A stretch of DNA of 5,863 nucleotides from the IMG/VR virus record IMGVR_UViG_3300018486_000129, positions 1 through 5,863 of that record; one strand, 5' to 3'. The notes under the pieces are model-generated. The model did not search any database. It saw only the letters and a list, made by a program, of their open reading frames with translations, and was not told where the DNA came from. This document shows positions 1 through 5,863 of the stretch, piece by piece. The position numbers were made by a program, and so were the translations under genes. This stretch comes from a virus (taxonomy: Duplodnaviria > Heunggongvirae > Uroviricota > Caudoviricetes). Numbering within the stretch: position 1 is the stretch's first letter; each line of letters begins with the position of its first letter.

Positions 1-158
1 ACAATCTCATTCAGGCACTCTTTGGCTGCCTCATCGTGACTTTTTCCGTATGCTTCATGGAGGACTTTCATCCTCATCATTGCTCCGTCACACATAATCG
101 AAAGCGCGTAAAGCACATCACTAATCGCCATTTCTTTTTTGGTGCTTGTCGAAGGCAT
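1..158 (-). CDS. Hypothetical protein, 5' part only (runs off the left edge of the window)
   Basis: Minus-strand frame open from ATG at 158..156 to position 1 (MPSTSTKKEMAISDVLYALSIMCDGAMMRMKVLHEAYGKSHDEAAKECLNEI...). GGAG at 170..167 lies 8 nt upstream of the ATG. Below the ORF-track length cut-off because it is truncated. Confidence 0.3.
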   Translation of the reverse strand, partial: MPSTSTKKEMAISDVLYALSIMCDGAMMRMKVLHEAYGKSHDEAAKECLNEI

Positions 159-183
159 CCCATGTTCTCCTTTGTCTGGATGT

Positions 184-209
184 AAAAAAGCCCCGGCAAT
201 TGCCGAGGC
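184..209 (-). terminator. Rho-independent terminator ending the 89-aa/66-aa operon
   Basis: Minus-strand RNA GCCUCGGC-AAUU-GCCGGGGC followed by UUUUUU (plus-strand A-run 184..189). 8-bp GC-rich stem with one U.G wobble that would be a C.A mismatch on the plus strand. Sits 24 nt downstream of the stop at 233. Confidence 0.55.
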
Positions 210-232
210 TCGTTGTTCGTTATCGTTACGGT

Positions 233-433
233 TTAATGCTCGCGTCGTCCGGCGACAACTTCGGATTTGTATTTCAGGTCGCCCAGCAAGAATTGCAGTT
301 TAAGCATCTTTGCCGCCGTGTAGTTTCCTGATTCCACAACCTCTTTCATGAGGTCATAAACGGCCGCAACATCATCAGCCAGGAACTCTTTGCGTTGCTG
401 CTCAGTCGCACGTTTGAAGGAAATACGCATCAC
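233..433 (-). CDS. Hypothetical small protein (65-66 aa), second gene of a coupled pair
   Basis: ORF-track frame 233..433. AGGAG at 445..441 precedes GTG 433 (7-nt spacer) and ATG 430 (10-nt spacer). The ATG overlaps the upstream TGA stop as TGATG. No family recognised. Confidence 0.5.
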   Translation of the reverse strand: MMRISFKRATEQQRKEFLADDVAAVYDLMKEVVESGNYTAAKMLKLQFLLGDLKYKSEVVAGRREH

Positions 434-699
434 TCATCATCTCCTGCCGCACATACAACCTCACAAAAAACATCAGCGGAATGTTTCTTTTTGAATGAAT
501 GGCGCTCAAAACCGCACTCAATATCAGGCGCAAAAACATCCACCACATACGGTCTTTCAGAATGTTTGTTTTCCCAACGATAAACCGTAGTGACGTTGAA
601 ATGTTTTAACGCTTCACGGAACTCAACGCTGCCCGTCAGGTTTTTTGAGGTCAGGTATTGCAGGAGGTTTTTTACTACTTCACGGTCTTGTACTTTCAT
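430..699 (-). CDS. Hypothetical protein (89 aa), first gene of a coupled pair
   Basis: ORF 430..699 with GGAG about 8 nt upstream of ATG 699. Stop overlaps the start of the 66-aa gene. No family recognised. Confidence 0.5.
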   Translation of the reverse strand: MKVQDREVVKNLLQYLTSKNLTGSVEFREALKHFNVTTVYRWENKHSERPYVVDVFAPDIECGFERHSFKKKHSADVFCEVVCAAGDDE

Positions 700-749
700 C
701 GGGTTATCTCCGGTTTAACCAGGGCGGGTATCGCTCGGTTTCGGGTATA

Positions 750-778
750 ACCATAGGAAATTTTTTCCCACCTGTAAA
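750..778 (-). promoter_or_regulatory. Candidate sigma70 promoter for the 89-aa/66-aa operon
   Basis: Minus strand reads TTTACA (778..773), 17-nt spacer, TATGGT (755..750), about 45 nt upstream of ATG 699, inside an AT-rich intergenic stretch. Hexamer match by eye only. Confidence 0.3.
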
Positions 779-794
779 GCACTTTTTATATAAA

Positions 795-808
795 TATATA
801 ATTATATA
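795..808. repeat. Perfect 14-bp AT-only palindrome TATATAATTATATA
   Basis: Read directly; it is its own reverse complement. Lies just after the methyltransferase stop and 16 bp upstream of the candidate -35. A related 12-bp copy is at 1930..1941. Confidence 0.6.
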
Positions 809-811
809 ATT

Positions 812-1399
812 CTATGCCACTTGCCAGAGAGCATCATGCAACTGGATACCTCCATTGCACTGGTTGCCCCAGCCATGCCAACCATCAGGTAAATCACCGC
901 GAGCAAACAGCTCAATACGAGGAACATCACCTAACAGCCTTACCAGCTTGTCACGAACCACATCAGGCTTCCGAGAATGCTCCAGACGAGGCGATGTAAA
1001 CGACTGAATGATCCCCGCATCAAGGCGGGTCGGCAATTTGCCTTTTACCGCAAACAAGCAATCTTCACTGTTTGCACGAGTCATATGCCCCATCCCCATC
1101 ACCAGCTTATCTGGTTGTCGGCTACCACATTTGTTCCATGTGAAGCCCTTCATGGTCATAAGCCTGAATCCCCATGCTTTCACCACCAGCAACGCTTCTT
1201 CTGGCTGAGTCGGAACCCACCACATGGCCAACAAACACGATTCAGGATTAGCAAGCTGCCAGACAGGAATACGAGCAATATCCTCAGCTTTCATCGTTGG
1301 ATACTTAAAACCAGCTCCACGATTCCCATCCTTACACTTATCTTTGTATTCCCAGGGGGGATCTGCATAAATCAGATTAAACAATGCAATTGCCTCCAT
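812..1399 (-). CDS. DNA N6-adenine methyltransferase, MT-A70-like (orphan, no restriction partner in window)
   Basis: 195-aa ORF with N-terminal ADPPWEY (DPPW catalytic motif of N6-adenine methyltransferases) and overall resemblance to phage Dam/MT-A70-like enzymes. GGAGG about 10 nt upstream of ATG 1399. Confidence 0.8.
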   Translation of the reverse strand: MEAIALFNLIYADPPWEYKDKCKDGNRGAGFKYPTMKAEDIARIPVWQLANPESCLLAMWWVPTQPEEALLVVKAWGFRLMTMKGFTWNKCGSRQPDKLVMGMGHMTRANSEDCLFAVKGKLPTRLDAGIIQSFTSPRLEHSRKPDVVRDKLVRLLGDVPRIELFARGDLPDGWHGWGNQCNGGIQLHDALWQVA

Positions 1400-1706: not shown

Positions 1707-1782
1707 TGGTGGCCCCTACCGGATTTGAACCGATGACCGTGCGATTATGAGTCGCCTGCTCTAACCACTGAGCTAAGGGGCC
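1707..1782 (-). tRNA. tRNA with CAU anticodon, most like tRNA-Ile2 (lysidine, AUA-decoding)
   Basis: Minus strand reads GGCCCCTTAGCTCAGTGGTTAGAGCAGGCGACTCATAATCGCACGGTCATCGGTTCAAATCCGGTAGGGGCCACCA. 7-bp acceptor stem, D-arm GCTC/GAGC, anticodon loop CTCATAA, T-arm ATCGG/CCGGT with TTCAAAT loop, encoded CCA. Acceptor stem GGCCCCU and anticodon arm match host ileX-type tRNA as recalled from memory; elongator tRNA-Met is not excluded. Confidence 0.9.
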
Positions 1783-1808
1783 ATATTTGATTTGTTTGTC
1801 TGGTGTGG

Positions 1809-1859
1809 CGCCGCGCACGAAAATCCCAGCCAATAAATTCAGGATTTTTGGGCGCGGCG
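1809..1859. repeat. Long inverted repeat (18-bp stem, 15-nt loop) just upstream of the tRNA
   Basis: 1809..1826 pairs with 1842..1859 (cgccgcgcacgaaaatcc / ggatttttgggcgcggcg), 16 of 18 Watson-Crick plus one G.T. GC-rich base, A/T-rich top. No flanking U-run. Confidence 0.5.
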
Positions 1860-3571: not shown

Positions 3572-3604
3572 AAAAAAAAAGCCCCGCCGAAAAAGGCAGG
3601 GCTT
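3572..3604 (-). terminator. Rho-independent terminator directly upstream of the holin RBS (tR'-like)
   Basis: Minus-strand RNA AAGCCCUGCC-UUUUUC-GGCGGGGCUU followed by nine U (plus-strand A-run 3572..3580). Stem has one U.G wobble that would be a C.A mismatch on the plus strand. Confidence 0.65.
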
Positions 3605-3937
3605 CATAAAGCAACAAATTACGCGGTAATCGCTTAACGCAGTTTTACTACGTTAAATGAAACACTACACCCAGTTACCACCTAAAACAAGGCTTCCCCA
3701 TAAAAAAACCTTCATTCTGTGGTTAACTGATCAATAAAAAAACAATACTCAACTTTTTACCAACCGAACATCCCGACCAGGACTTCCATAATATTCGCCG
3801 ATATGCCACTGCTTAAGTTGAGTAATCTTCTCCAACTTAACGCCCATAGAGTCCAGTTTCTGCCATGTTTTCGGTTGTATGTGCTTCATTACCCGCTCTG
3901 AATATCTGAATACTGCTCGTAAGCGCATGGCTTCTCA
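3605..3937 (-). promoter_or_regulatory. Non-coding leader upstream of the lysis cassette; candidate late promoter and short terminated leader RNA
   Basis: About 335 bp with no ORF of 60 aa or more on the minus strand, AT-rich in places, ending in the terminator. No confident -35/-10 pair could be assigned by eye. Confidence 0.35.
3813..3840. repeat. Inverted repeat TTAAGTTG-N12-CAACTTAA in the leader
   Basis: Perfect 8-bp arms at 3813..3820 and 3833..3840 separated by 12 bp. No adjacent U-run. Confidence 0.4.
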
Positions 3938-4129
3938 CTACAGCTTATATAAGTGGTTTTTCCAGCGGTTTTGCGCCGCGCTGCGCTTATCTTTGACTCC
4001 CTCTCTGGCAATTCCAAAAAATGAGAACAACACCACACGACGATTGCTAACTCTCAACCACTGGCTGGGATAGCAAAGCCTGTATACTCGCGAAATAATC
4101 ATCCTGGCTTTACGATTGTTGGTTGCCAT
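3938..4129 (-). CDS. Small basic hypothetical protein (63 aa)
   Basis: Strong RBS AGGAG 6 nt upstream of ATG 4129, which lies 1 nt after the upstream TGA stop. Arg/Lys-rich. No family recognised; a plus-strand ORF overlaps it, so coding status is uncertain. Confidence 0.4.
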   Translation of the reverse strand: MATNNRKARMIISRVYRLCYPSQWLRVSNRRVVLFSFFGIAREGVKDKRSAAQNRWKNHLYKL

Positions 4130-4130
4130 A

Positions 4131-5141: not shown

Positions 5142-5810
5142 TTATGCTTCCTGAATACGCTTAAACTCAATTACCCATACCCACGGGTTAGATAGCCAGT
5201 TCTCTTGCCCGTAAATACCGCGCCAGATATCACCAAAGCCAACGCGATAAACAGCTTCCGGCGGTGTAATCTTGTACGTCGCCGGAGATGCGCCTTCCGC
5301 TTTAGCATCTGCCTCGCTCATGTCATGCAGCCGTTCCACACGCACGTCGGTAATTTCCAACAGAATGCGTGATGCCCATCGCGGCATGTGAATTGATGGA
5401 CGCCACCCACCATCAAACTTTTCATTCACAGTGTGAGGTTTCCAGTCGGCATCATCGGGTATCGACCACAAGCCGTAATCACCAGGCTTTTGCTCACAAC
5501 TGGCCCGATAAATCCTTGCTGCGTTCTTCTCATCGCCACGACAAAGGTTGTCGTTCCAGTCCACACTGCAACCATCCTCATTGCCTAATATCGCCCACGC
5601 CTCGCGGACCCATATGCGATCACCAACGTTACCGAACGGGCATAAACCATGTTCCGGTGCATCCATAACGTGGGTATAGACACCATTGCGTTTCTTTGTC
5701 GGTTTACGGATAACCAGGCAGTTATCGGCCCTGACATTTTTTACAGGTCGGCGAGTCTGCGTTTTCCTTCCTTCGAGGATGGCCCGGACCATCTCATCGT
5801 TAAAAATCAT
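5142..5810 (-). CDS. ASCH-domain (PUA-like fold) protein, about 222 aa
   Basis: Start set at ATG 5810 (MIFNDEMVRAILEGRKTQTRRPV...) because the ORF-track start at 5837 is a GTG whose first codons contain the likely RBS. N-terminal GRKTQTRR...GDRIWVRE and C-terminal VWVIEFKRI resemble the ASCH signature (compare E. coli YqfB, from memory). Confidence 0.65.
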   Translation of the reverse strand: MIFNDEMVRAILEGRKTQTRRPVKNVRADNCLVIRKPTKKRNGVYTHVMDAPEHGLCPFGNVGDRIWVREAWAILGNEDGCSVDWNDNLCRGDEKNAARIYRASCEQKPGDYGLWSIPDDADWKPHTVNEKFDGGWRPSIHMPRWASRILLEITDVRVERLHDMSEADAKAEGASPATYKITPPEAVYRVGFGDIWRGIYGQENWLSNPWVWVIEFKRIQEA

Positions 5811-5863
5811 GCCGCGCTCTTTCACTCTCCCTCCCACGTTTTCAGACTTTCACCACAAAACGG

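What the first reader, a model, noticed from the sequence alone, without database searches (positions are those of the whole stretch)
184..778. Self-contained two-gene operon of unknown function (89 aa then 66 aa)
The pair has its own candidate promoter, RBSs, a 1-nt TGATG stop-start overlap and a dedicated terminator. Neither protein resembles a family I can name, and neither looks like a structural, lysis or packaging protein. Small coupled pairs in moron positions are often toxin-antitoxin, anti-defence or superinfection-exclusion modules, so this is the best candidate in the window for an undescribed accessory system.
Basis: inference. Interest (0 to 1): 0.6.

Follow-up and report, generated by a model that had tools for sequence, protein, structure and literature searches.

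The report
Accessory two-gene operon in phage-plasmid
This is a real, conserved pair of small overlapping genes of unknown function in a 48-kb E. coli/Yersinia phage-plasmid; it is driven by one of three near-identical promoter cassettes, is very unlikely to be a toxin-antitoxin pair, and is possibly an establishment or anti-defence module.

Summary
An 89-aa ORF (699..430) and a 65-aa ORF (430..233, 66 aa from the GTG) share a TGATG overlap. A sigma-70-like promoter precedes them and a strong terminator hairpin follows. Both ORFs are under purifying selection (dN/dS about 0.1), and the pair keeps its overlap and synteny in three or four diverged lineages.

New points:
- The window is a ~48-kb myovirus-type phage-plasmid (74 of 5426 complete E. 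coli genomes; Yersinia phage vB_YpM_39).
- The promoter is not private. About 115 nt, from an AT-rich 8-bp array through the promoter and leader to the ATG, occur three times per genome, ahead of this pair, a DUF3560 gene and a 126-aa gene. This cassette is far better conserved than the coding DNA.
- The next gene starts 25 nt after the terminator T-run, so it probably depends on read-through.
- The 89-aa protein belongs to an unannotated, mostly acidic domain family. Members also occur fused to variable C-terminal tails in phages, and just downstream of orphan N6-methylases in plasmid leading regions.
- The 65-aa helical hairpin is specific to this lineage.
- Each gene occurs disrupted while the other is intact, and isolated phages lack the 89-aa gene, which argues against a toxin-antitoxin pair.

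Function is unproven. An accessory establishment or anti-defence role is the best inference.

The parts
786..817 (-). AT-rich array with 8-bp periodicity (TATATAAT-like units) just upstream of the -35 and overlapping the stop of the MT-A70 gene. Candidate operator or protein-binding array.
   Evidence: Related arrays occur in L002 at 3310, 4527, 8281-8389 (bracketing the parA promoter), 9059-9104, 13906, 45186 and 46302-46362. The array is conserved across lineages.
750..778 (-). Sigma-70-like promoter: -35 TTTACA (778..773), 17-nt spacer containing the inverted repeat GGAAA-N3-TTTCC (768..756), and -10 TATGGT (755..750).
   Evidence: Nearly invariant in all three copies per genome and in diverged lineages. 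Variants keep T1, A2 and T6 of the -10 (TAAGGT). The inverted repeat occurs 4 times in L002 against 0.11 expected; its centre varies (AAA/ATA) while the arms are fixed.
707..742 (-). Conserved 36-nt leader block GAAACCGAGCGATANNCGCCCTGGTTAAACCGGAGA, ending in the Shine-Dalgarno GGAGA (711..707). It contains a weak hairpin whose loop is the only variable part.
   Evidence: The block is identical ahead of three unrelated genes, and conservation stops just before the ATG. Fold is -9.6 kcal/mol, z = -1.8. No Rfam match.
430..699 (-). Gene 1, 89 aa. Small alpha/beta protein (H-H-E-E-E-H), founding member here of an unannotated domain family (phrog_6143).
   Evidence: 42 representatives at E<=1e-3. 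dN/dS 0.13. No significant Pfam or NCBIfam match, no PDB-sequence match.
465..470 (-). T6 homopolymer in the coding strand of gene 1 (A6 on the + strand), polymorphic in length among natural copies.
   Evidence: The T5 allele gives the 98-aa variant P0004 (39 index blocks). A +1 insertion consistent with a T7 run gives a 79-aa product in L062 (the nucleotide sequence was not read).
233..430 (-). Gene 2, 65 aa from the ATG at 430 (66 aa from the GTG at 433). Basic helical hairpin (phrog_6621), translationally coupled through TGATG.
   Evidence: AF2 pLDDT 90.4, helices 10-34 and 39-59. dN/dS 0.08. Found only in this phage-plasmid lineage.
184..211 (-). Intrinsic terminator: 10-bp GC-rich hairpin plus T-run, starting 21 nt after the stop of gene 2.
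   Evidence: z = -4.4. A terminator occupies the same position after the pair in L003, L004 and L071.
1..158 (-). Context: 5' part of the next gene (99 aa, phrog_8319). Its ATG is at 158 and its Shine-Dalgarno AAGGAGA at 172..166, only 25 nt after the terminator T-run.
   Evidence: No promoter-like site lies between the terminator and this gene.
812..1399 (-). Context: MT-A70 family DNA methyltransferase immediately upstream. This synteny is conserved in every lineage examined.

Best explanation
SHOWN. The unit is a conserved, non-essential accessory operon of a ~48-kb myovirus-type phage-plasmid. Two translationally coupled genes are transcribed from one of three near-identical copies of a promoter-operator-leader cassette, and transcription can end at an intrinsic terminator right after the second gene.

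Gene 1 encodes an alpha/beta protein that is acidic in most family members. It belongs to an unannotated domain family that occurs in three settings:
- standalone, followed by an overlapping or closely adjacent downstream gene of variable identity;
- fused to at least four unrelated C-terminal tails in other phages;
- in plasmid leading regions, directly after an orphan N6-DNA methylase.

Gene 2 encodes a basic 65-aa helical hairpin restricted to this phage-plasmid lineage.

INFERRED.
- The cassette promoter lets the pair be expressed independently of the surrounding late operon, together with the DUF3560 and 126-aa/HTH operons.
- It is probably repressible through the GGAAA-N3-TTTCC site in the spacer and the AT-rich 8-bp arrays, which it shares with the parA promoter.
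- The terminator insulates downstream packaging genes. Late transcription probably reads through it by antitermination.
- The products most likely act as a small protein-binding module on a host or element protein during establishment or carriage (anti-defence or establishment type). The conserved 89-aa domain would be the common adaptor or inhibitor, and the coupled or fused partner the variable part.
- It is not an addiction (toxin-antitoxin) module.
For: Anatomy and coding status.

Element identity.

Conserved pair, overlap and terminator across lineages.

Triplicated cassette, always ahead of the same three gene families and nearly invariant while synonymous sites are saturated.

Operator-like inverted repeat enriched 4 against 0.11 expected, and distinct from the CI-type operators ACCAC-N5-GTGGT.

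The same AT-rich arrays bracket the parA promoter.

Dispensability and independence of the two genes.

Family breadth and modular C-terminal tails.

Leading-region context (N6-methylase, then the family member, then a ~250-aa protein homologous to the F leading-region 258-aa protein; also DUF1281, DndB/DGQHR, PsiA, Hok, ArdA).

Leading regions are enriched in anti-defence genes: PMC11541004.

Most family members are acidic (pI 4.5-5).

Terminator-then-gene arrangement also ahead of the holin (3605..3578), consistent with antitermination.
Against: - There is no functional evidence of any kind. The anti-defence or establishment role rests on neighbourhood only, from about 8 plasmids plus this phage-plasmid group.
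- The long phage forms (L010, L032) are not next to methylases.
- No match in PADLOC (which holds defence rather than anti-defence models), no significant Pfam or NCBIfam match, and no PDB-sequence match.
- Physical interaction of the two proteins is untested.
- Timing of cassette activity (plasmid state, early or late) is unknown.
- No regulator has been assigned to the operator-like sites.
Confidence: 0.4

Rival explanations
1. Regulatory pair. The basic 65-aa protein, perhaps with the 89-aa protein as modulator, is a transcription or antitermination factor for the downstream ParB-like/terminase/structural genes, or an autoregulator of the cassette regulon.
For: - It sits immediately upstream of the packaging and structural block, behind a terminator that the next gene must read through.
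- The 65-aa gene is retained in all 14 metagenome loci found with it, including those that lack the 89-aa gene.
- The 65-aa protein is basic (pI 9.05), with a conserved N-terminal SFKRAT motif.
- The beta3-alpha half of the 89-aa model weakly resembles AP2 / integrase N-terminal DNA-binding folds.
Against: - No HTH or RHH family match even at E <= 1.
- Predicted helices of 25 and 21 residues are too long for a ribbon-helix-helix.
- A 51-aa truncation lacking the conserved C-terminus exists on at least 24 contigs.
- Most members of the 89-aa family are acidic.
- No operator has been assigned to either protein.
Confidence: 0.2
2. Superinfection-exclusion or other prophage-expressed fitness moron, acting on incoming phages or on host physiology rather than on host defences.
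For: - Promoter-genes-terminator unit embedded in a late-operon-oriented region, which is classic moron anatomy.
- The slot is a variable hotspot. Hafnia relatives carry extra small ORFs with hydrophobic, membrane-protein-like sequences right after the pair's terminator.
- The 89-aa gene is dispensable in viable phages.
Against: - Both sequences are rich in charged residues and show no obvious transmembrane segment or signal peptide (read from the sequences; no predictor was run).
- No match to PADLOC defence models.
- GC content is unremarkable (45.6% against 48.8%).
- The pair is ancestral to the whole lineage rather than a sporadic insertion.
Confidence: 0.15
3. Type II toxin-antitoxin (addiction) module stabilising the plasmid prophage.
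For: - Two small overlapping genes on a plasmid-borne element.
- One product is near-neutral here and acidic in most relatives, the other is basic.
Against: - Each gene is found inactivated with the other intact. The 89-aa gene is deleted in-frame (73-aa fusion) in 5 distinct sequences, including the isolated phages vB_YpM_41/44. The 65-aa gene is truncated to 51 aa with an intact 89-aa gene on at least 24 contigs. The 89-aa gene is frameshifted with an intact 65-aa gene in 39 index blocks.
- No toxin or antitoxin family match in Pfam, NCBIfam or PADLOC.
- The element already carries a RelE/ParE-HTH pair.
- Homologues of the 89-aa domain are fused to, or followed by, unrelated partners.
Confidence: 0.05
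4. Plasmid-maintenance accessory: the pair assists partition or copy control of the phage-plasmid.
For: - The AT-rich 8-bp arrays upstream of the pair's promoter are the same type that brackets the parA promoter and the ParA/82-aa gene junction.
- One cassette copy lies in the RepA/TA maintenance region.
Against: - Shared operator arrays indicate co-regulation, not shared function.
- Homologues in conjugative plasmids sit in leading regions rather than in par or rep operons.
- The 89-aa gene is missing from otherwise complete elements.
Confidence: 0.08

Closest known systems
Phage 'morons' (promoter-gene-terminator units inserted in late operons of lambdoid and HK97-like phages; Hendrix/Juhala concept, cited from memory)
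   Same: - Own sigma-70-type promoter and intrinsic terminator.
- Embedded between late-oriented genes.
- Dispensable for phage viability.
- Sits in a variable hotspot.
   Different: - Not a sporadic insertion: it is ancestral to the lineage.
- GC content is not deviant.
- The promoter is one of three identical cassette copies forming a regulon.
- It has two coupled genes rather than one.
Leading-region establishment/anti-defence genes of conjugative plasmids (ArdA, PsiB, orphan methylases; PMC11541004)
   Same: Homologues of the 89-aa domain lie in leading regions directly after an orphan N6-methylase. They lie upstream of a protein homologous to the F leading-region 258-aa protein, near PsiA, Hok and ArdA. 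In the phage-plasmid the gene also follows a DNA methyltransferase.
   Different: - No sequence or fold relation to ArdA, ArdB/KlcA, PsiB or DUF1380.
- No activity has been shown.
- In the phage-plasmid the context is a phage late region, not an oriT-proximal leading strand.
Type II toxin-antitoxin operons
   Same: Two small, overlapping, co-transcribed genes on a plasmid-like replicon.
   Different: - No family match.
- No recognisable DNA-binding antitoxin domain.
- Each gene occurs disrupted with the other intact.
Global plasmid regulons with dispersed operator or centromere repeats (omega regulon of pSM19035; dispersed sopC sites of phage-plasmid N15; cited from memory)
   Same: Short tandem repeat arrays of one type occur at the par promoter and upstream of several unrelated operons of the same replicon.
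   Different: - The binding protein is unidentified.
- The repeats are AT-rich 8-mers.
- The whole promoter plus leader is duplicated, not just the repeats.
Lambda pR'-tR' / Q antitermination layout (cited from memory)
   Same: Strong intrinsic terminators lie 14-25 nt upstream of the start codons of the holin gene and of the gene after the pair. This implies read-through control of late genes.
   Different: No Q-like protein or qut site was identified. The pair's promoter heads protein-coding genes, not a short leader RNA.

Membership tests
Type II toxin-antitoxin system | Two small adjacent co-oriented genes, usually overlapping | tested here: met
   TGATG overlap at 428-432. The overlap is conserved in relatives.
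Type II toxin-antitoxin system | Homology of at least one partner to a known toxin or antitoxin family | tested here: not met
   No significant Pfam or NCBIfam match and no PADLOC or PDB-sequence match.
Type II toxin-antitoxin system | Genetic interdependence: the toxin is not maintained without a functional antitoxin | tested here: not met
   Natural alleles disrupt either gene while the other stays intact. These include the isolated phages lacking the 89-aa gene, and at least 24 contigs with a truncated 65-aa gene.
Type II toxin-antitoxin system | Toxicity of one product and rescue by the other | not testable with these tools
   Requires expression cloning.
Phage moron | Own promoter upstream and intrinsic terminator downstream | tested here: met
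   TTTACA-17-TATGGT at 778..750, conserved and triplicated. Terminator hairpin 211..188, z = -4.4.
Phage moron | Non-essential; present in some relatives and absent in others | tested here: inconclusive
   The 89-aa gene is absent from vB_YpM_41/44 and about a quarter of sampled loci. The 65-aa gene and the cassette are present in all loci examined.
Phage moron | Deviant base composition indicating recent acquisition | tested here: not met
   GC 45.6% against 48.8% for the window.
Leading-region anti-defence/establishment genes | Location in the plasmid leading region among ardA, psi, ssb, hok and orphan methylase genes | tested here: met
   Met for plasmid homologues of the 89-aa domain only. 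Orthology of that region to the F leading region rests on the 258-aa protein. The phage-plasmid copy sits next to an MT-A70 methylase, but this is not a leading region.
Leading-region anti-defence/establishment genes | Inhibits a host defence or the SOS response | not testable with these tools
   Requires restriction, defence-system or SOS assays.
AP2 / integrase N-terminal (three-strand sheet plus helix) DNA-binding fold | Significant structural match and a basic DNA-contact surface | tested here: inconclusive
Ribbon-helix-helix repressors (for the 65-aa protein) | N-terminal beta-strand plus two short helices; match to RHH profiles | tested here: not met
DUF1380 (occupies the same post-methylase slot in the F leading region) | Profile similarity to DUF1380 proteins | tested here: not met
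   hhalign probability 0.2-0.3% against both F DUF1380 proteins. No Pfam hit.

The most novel reading that the evidence does not exclude
The 89-aa domain defines a new anti-defence or establishment protein family shared by phage-plasmids, phages and conjugative-plasmid leading regions. It is habitually placed right after orphan DNA methylases and works with interchangeable fused or translationally coupled partners.

In the phage-plasmid it would belong to a three-operon regulon. A duplicated promoter-operator-leader cassette carries the same AT-rich arrays as the partition promoter, which would couple accessory-gene expression to the plasmid-maintenance circuitry.
Probability: 0.2. Interest if true: 0.7.

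Novelty: new member of a known kind. Interest (0 to 1): 0.4.

Why it matters
Phage-plasmids are widespread in clinical E. coli, yet most of their accessory genes are unannotated.

If the 89-aa family proves to be an establishment or anti-defence factor, it would link phage-plasmid accessory regions to the anti-defence islands of conjugative-plasmid leading regions. It would also add a family with modular partners.

Independently of the pair's function, the triplicated and ultra-conserved promoter-operator-leader cassette is a ready handle. It could be used to dissect how this element co-regulates three operons, and possibly how it ties them to partition.

If nothing comes of it, the pair is one more conserved hypothetical moron.

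Tried and rejected
- Pfam, NCBIfam, PADLOC and PDB-sequence searches of both proteins and of family profiles: nothing significant.
- PHROGs: families of unknown function only. A weak 'excisionase' hit (E 0.29) was rejected because the TVYRW-like motif is a predicted beta-strand and is not conserved in the family.
- Split-gene idea: is the 65-aa protein a detached version of the C-terminal tails of the long homologues, or of the ~250-aa plasmid partner? hhalign probabilities are 0.15-0.24%, so this was rejected.
- Homology of the 89-aa family to DUF1380, which fills the same slot in F: rejected.
- Rfam search of the leader and surroundings: no match for the cassette. The leader fold is only weakly stable.
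- A genome-contig scan with the long-form alignment found no confirmed relative. The first attempt, with a too-diverse alignment, failed.
- Literature searches for the phage name, the protein accessions and the phage-plasmid group found nothing specific.
- A search for an antiterminator or late activator among neighbouring hypothetical genes found none.
- Composition anomaly: none.
Full report
**1. What is in the sequence**

The finding's features all exist, on the minus strand.
- An 89-aa ORF runs from the ATG at 699 to the TGA at 432..430.
- A second ORF starts at the ATG at 430..428, so stop and start share one base (TGATG). It ends with the TAA at 235..233.
- From the ATG the second product is 65 aa, as RefSeq annotates it.
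- GGAGA lies 7 nt before the first ATG. AGGAG lies about 10 nt before the second.
- A TTTACA-17-TATGGT promoter-like site lies at 778..750.
- A 10-bp GC-rich hairpin with a T-run lies at 211..184. It folds at -19.4 kcal/mol, z = -4.4, and none of 200 shuffles is as stable.

**2. Are these real genes?**

Yes. Against a relative with 59% and 75% amino-acid identity (L003), synonymous sites are near saturation (pS about 0.7). dN/dS is 0.13 for the first gene and 0.08 for the second.

Every diverged lineage examined carries the pair, each in the same place after an MT-A70 methyltransferase gene:
- the E. coli type (window);
- L017;
- an ENA metagenome contig, L003;
- Hafnia MAGs, L004-L009;
- a deeper branch, L012/L071.

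Each has a 1- or 4-nt start-stop overlap. A terminator-like hairpin follows the second gene in each lineage scanned.

In the deepest branch the second protein is only 33% identical to the window's. So the pairing is old.

**3. Where the window comes from**

The stretch is 99-99.9% identical to ~48-kb circular plasmids in 74 of 5426 complete E. coli genomes. It is 99% identical to Yersinia phage vB_YpM_39.

The full record NZ_CP070136.1 shows a phage-plasmid with:
- a contractile tail and lambda-like head genes;
- RepA, ParA and a RelE/HTH toxin-antitoxin pair;
- an XRE-type repressor.

The gene order on the coding strand is: holins, GH108 endolysin, spanin, tRNA, MT-A70 methylase, the pair, three small unknown genes, three ParB/Srx-domain proteins, then terminase and virion genes.

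**4. The promoter is a shared cassette**

This is the main new observation. Repeat analysis of the whole element found three copies of a ~108-nt segment. Aligned, the three copies are almost identical over this span:
- an AT-rich array;
- AAAAAGTGC;
- TTTACA;
- a spacer containing GGAAA-N3-TTTCC;
- TATGGT;
- a 36-nt leader block ending in GGAGA.

Similarity stops at the ATG. The copies head three different genes: the 89-aa gene, a 355-aa DUF3560 gene, and a 126-aa gene followed by an HTH_3 gene.

The cassette is nearly invariant even in lineages whose coding DNA is saturated at synonymous sites. A scan of IMG/VR for the leader block found 20 stretches. In all of them, and in all other loci held, the block precedes one of the same three gene families.

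Within the cassette, variation falls in a few places only:
- the centre of the spacer inverted repeat (AAA or ATA);
- position 3 of the -10 (TATGGT or TAAGGT, keeping T1, A2 and T6);
- the 7-8 nt after the -10;
- the loop of a small leader hairpin.

GGAAA-N3-TTTCC occurs four times in the element against 0.11 expected. It differs from the ACCAC-N5-GTGGT operators beside the XRE repressor gene.

The AT-rich arrays have 8-bp periodicity. They recur on both sides of the parA promoter, between parA and the following 82-aa gene, and between the spanin gene and the tRNA.

I infer that the three cassettes form a regulon controlled by an unidentified element-encoded DNA-binding protein or proteins. 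That regulator may be linked to the partition system. No regulator has been shown.

**5. Is the operon self-contained?**

Only partly.
- Upstream, no terminator-like site separates it from the MT-A70 gene.
- Downstream, the next gene's ATG (158) lies 25 nt after the T-run, with a good Shine-Dalgarno and no promoter-like site in between.
- The same 'terminator, then gene' layout recurs before the holin gene: an 11-bp hairpin with T9 at 3605..3578, 14 nt before the holin ribosome-binding site and start. It also recurs in relatives.

This fits late transcription that reads through terminators, as in lambda. The cassette promoter would then give the pair expression independent of the late operon, and the terminator would shield the packaging genes. 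That is moron logic, and it is inference. No antiterminator was identified.

**6. The proteins**

Neither protein has a significant match in Pfam or NCBIfam, and neither matches PADLOC. The 89-aa profile has no PDB-sequence match and the 65-aa profile only insignificant ones. PHROGs place them in families 6143 and 6621, both of unknown function.

*The 89-aa protein.* AlphaFold2 gives pLDDT 82 with the topology H-H-E-E-E-H.

An exhaustive HMMER search found 42 representatives at E <= 1e-3. The 89 aa correspond to a 90-100-aa N-terminal domain, with:
- a conserved VVKxLLQYMT motif;
- EFRAALKHFNITT;
- VDVFxP;
- a G-x-R-x-x-F strand;
- an EA..FA helix;
- a terminal GD.

Many members are 160-256 aa long, with at least four unrelated kinds of C-terminal tail. 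One member has two tandem copies of the domain.

Most members checked are acidic, with pI 4.5-5.4; the window copy has pI 6.1. Structural neighbours are weak:
- small integrase-N-like phage proteins in BFVD at E 0.02-0.35.

Given the acidity, I do not take the AP2-like resemblance as evidence of DNA binding.

*The 65-aa protein.* The model is a confident helical hairpin (pLDDT 90). It is basic (pI 9.05) and has thousands of generic structural neighbours. I found it only in this phage-plasmid lineage.

It is not related to the C-terminal tails of the long homologues, nor to the plasmid partner proteins.

**7. Context of homologues**

In a Salmonella plasmid (pRSE21), a Citrobacter contig, and MOBP plasmids of Enterobacter and Serratia, a 94-154-aa member of the family lies directly after an orphan N-6 DNA methylase. 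It is followed, usually with overlapping start and stop, by a ~250-aa protein or an 81-aa protein.

The neighbourhood contains ParM/StbA, UmuDC, DUF1281, DndB/DGQHR, PsiA, Hok and ArdA-type antirestriction genes.

The ~250-aa partner family is homologous over its full length to the 258-aa protein of the F-plasmid leading region (hhalign 97.5%, E 7e-12). That F protein also follows a DNA methylase. The slot in between is filled in F by a DUF1380 protein, which is unrelated to the 89-aa family.

So the plasmid homologues are bona fide leading-region genes. Leading regions are documented hotspots for anti-defence genes (PMC11541004).

The family is rare: about 8 of 72,556 plasmids outside the phage-plasmid group. 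In other phages (L010, L032) the long forms open an operon beside the terminase genes, without a methylase.

**8. Natural alleles argue against a toxin-antitoxin pair**
- Five distinct sequences, including the isolated phages vB_YpM_41 and 44, carry an in-frame deletion. It fuses the first eight codons of gene 1 to gene 2, giving a 73-aa product, so the 89-aa gene is dispensable.
- At least 24 contigs carry an intact 89-aa gene with the second gene truncated to 51 aa, losing its conserved C-terminus.
- Thirty-nine index blocks carry a T5 allele of the T6 run at 465-470. It replaces the last 11 residues of the 89-aa protein and yields 98 aa, with an intact second gene. A +1-type frameshift at the same tract gives a 79-aa product in L062.
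- In the metagenome sample found with the 65-aa query, 7 loci had intact pairs, 3 had the fusion, 1 had the 79-aa frameshift allele and 1 had the divergent pair.

Neither gene therefore depends on the other for tolerability.

**9. Verdict**

The anatomy is confirmed and extended. The toxin-antitoxin reading is unlikely.

The best-supported account is a non-essential accessory operon that belongs to a three-cassette regulon. Its first product belongs to a new, modular, mostly acidic domain family that also populates plasmid leading regions next to orphan methylases. An establishment or anti-defence role is the most plausible function, but it rests on neighbourhood alone. A regulatory role for the basic 65-aa protein is the main rival.

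The pair itself is ordinary as phage accessory genes go. The triplicated, ultra-conserved promoter-operator-leader cassette and the leading-region link are the parts worth following up.

Noticed in passing
window 700-817; L002 4447-4554, 13825-13932, 45106-45213: A ~115-nt promoter-operator-leader cassette is present three times per genome. The copies are almost identical up to the ATG of three unrelated genes (the 89-aa gene, a DUF3560 gene and a 126-aa gene). The cassette is far more conserved between lineages than the coding DNA.
   Followed up: yes
window 786-817 and 1905-1957; L002 3310-3345, 8281-8389, 9059-9104, 46302-46362: AT-rich arrays with 8-bp periodicity are dispersed in the element. 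They bracket the parA promoter. Two of them flank the tRNA + MT-A70 segment as 32-nt inverted repeats (88% complementary). They may be binding sites for a partition or global regulator, reminiscent of dispersed centromeres or omega-type regulons.
   Followed up: partly
window 3578-3605 (minus strand) and 3606-4130: A strong intrinsic terminator (11-bp stem, T9) lies 14 nt before the holin ribosome-binding site and start. It follows about 570 nt that contain only two short ORFs. The layout resembles lambda pR'-tR' and suggests antitermination control of the late genes. No antiterminator gene was identified.
   Followed up: partly
window 465-470: The homopolymer run (T6 on the coding strand) inside the 89-aa gene varies among natural copies. 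The T5 allele gives a 98-aa product; a +1-type frameshift consistent with T7 gives a 79-aa product in L062 (nucleotide sequence not read). Both change the protein's C-terminus and how far its reading frame overlaps the start of gene 2. This could be simple hypermutability or phase variation.
   Followed up: partly
window 1707-1782 (minus strand): A tRNA with a CAT anticodon. ARAGORN and the Yersinia phage record call it tRNA-Met, while RefSeq annotates the same gene as tRNA-Ile (presumably lysidine-modified) in NZ_CP070136.1.
   Followed up: no
window 1793-1826 / 1842-1875: A 34-nt inverted repeat (85% complementary, 15-nt loop) lies immediately beside the tRNA gene. Its function is unknown. 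It produced only spurious sub-threshold miRNA hits in Rfam.
   Followed up: no
L004 about 5400-5730; L003 1257-1503: In the Hafnia and L003 lineages, extra DNA sits between the pair's terminator and a second terminator before the next gene. In L004 it contains small ORFs with hydrophobic, membrane-protein-like sequences (68 and 42 aa). The slot is therefore a hotspot for accessory insertions.
   Followed up: no
L035 7001-7707 and 8084-9125: A Citrobacter braakii plasmid-like contig carries two paralogues of the 89-aa domain. One is 154 aa, followed by an overlapping 81-aa gene. The other is 101 aa, followed by an overlapping 247-aa gene.
   Followed up: partly
L072 (F plasmid) 7566-8342 versus L033, L035, L050, L051: The ~250-aa genes that follow the plasmid homologues are full-length homologues of the uncharacterised 258-aa leading-region protein of F (hhalign 97.5%). 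The slot between the methylase and this gene holds DUF1380 in F and the 89-aa family in other plasmids.
   Followed up: partly
window 5142-5837 and L002 2029-2646: Two paralogous genes (both phrog_874, unknown function) lie in the same long leftward transcription unit. Several Ead/Ea22-like PHROG families of unknown function also recur upstream of the lysis genes.
   Followed up: no
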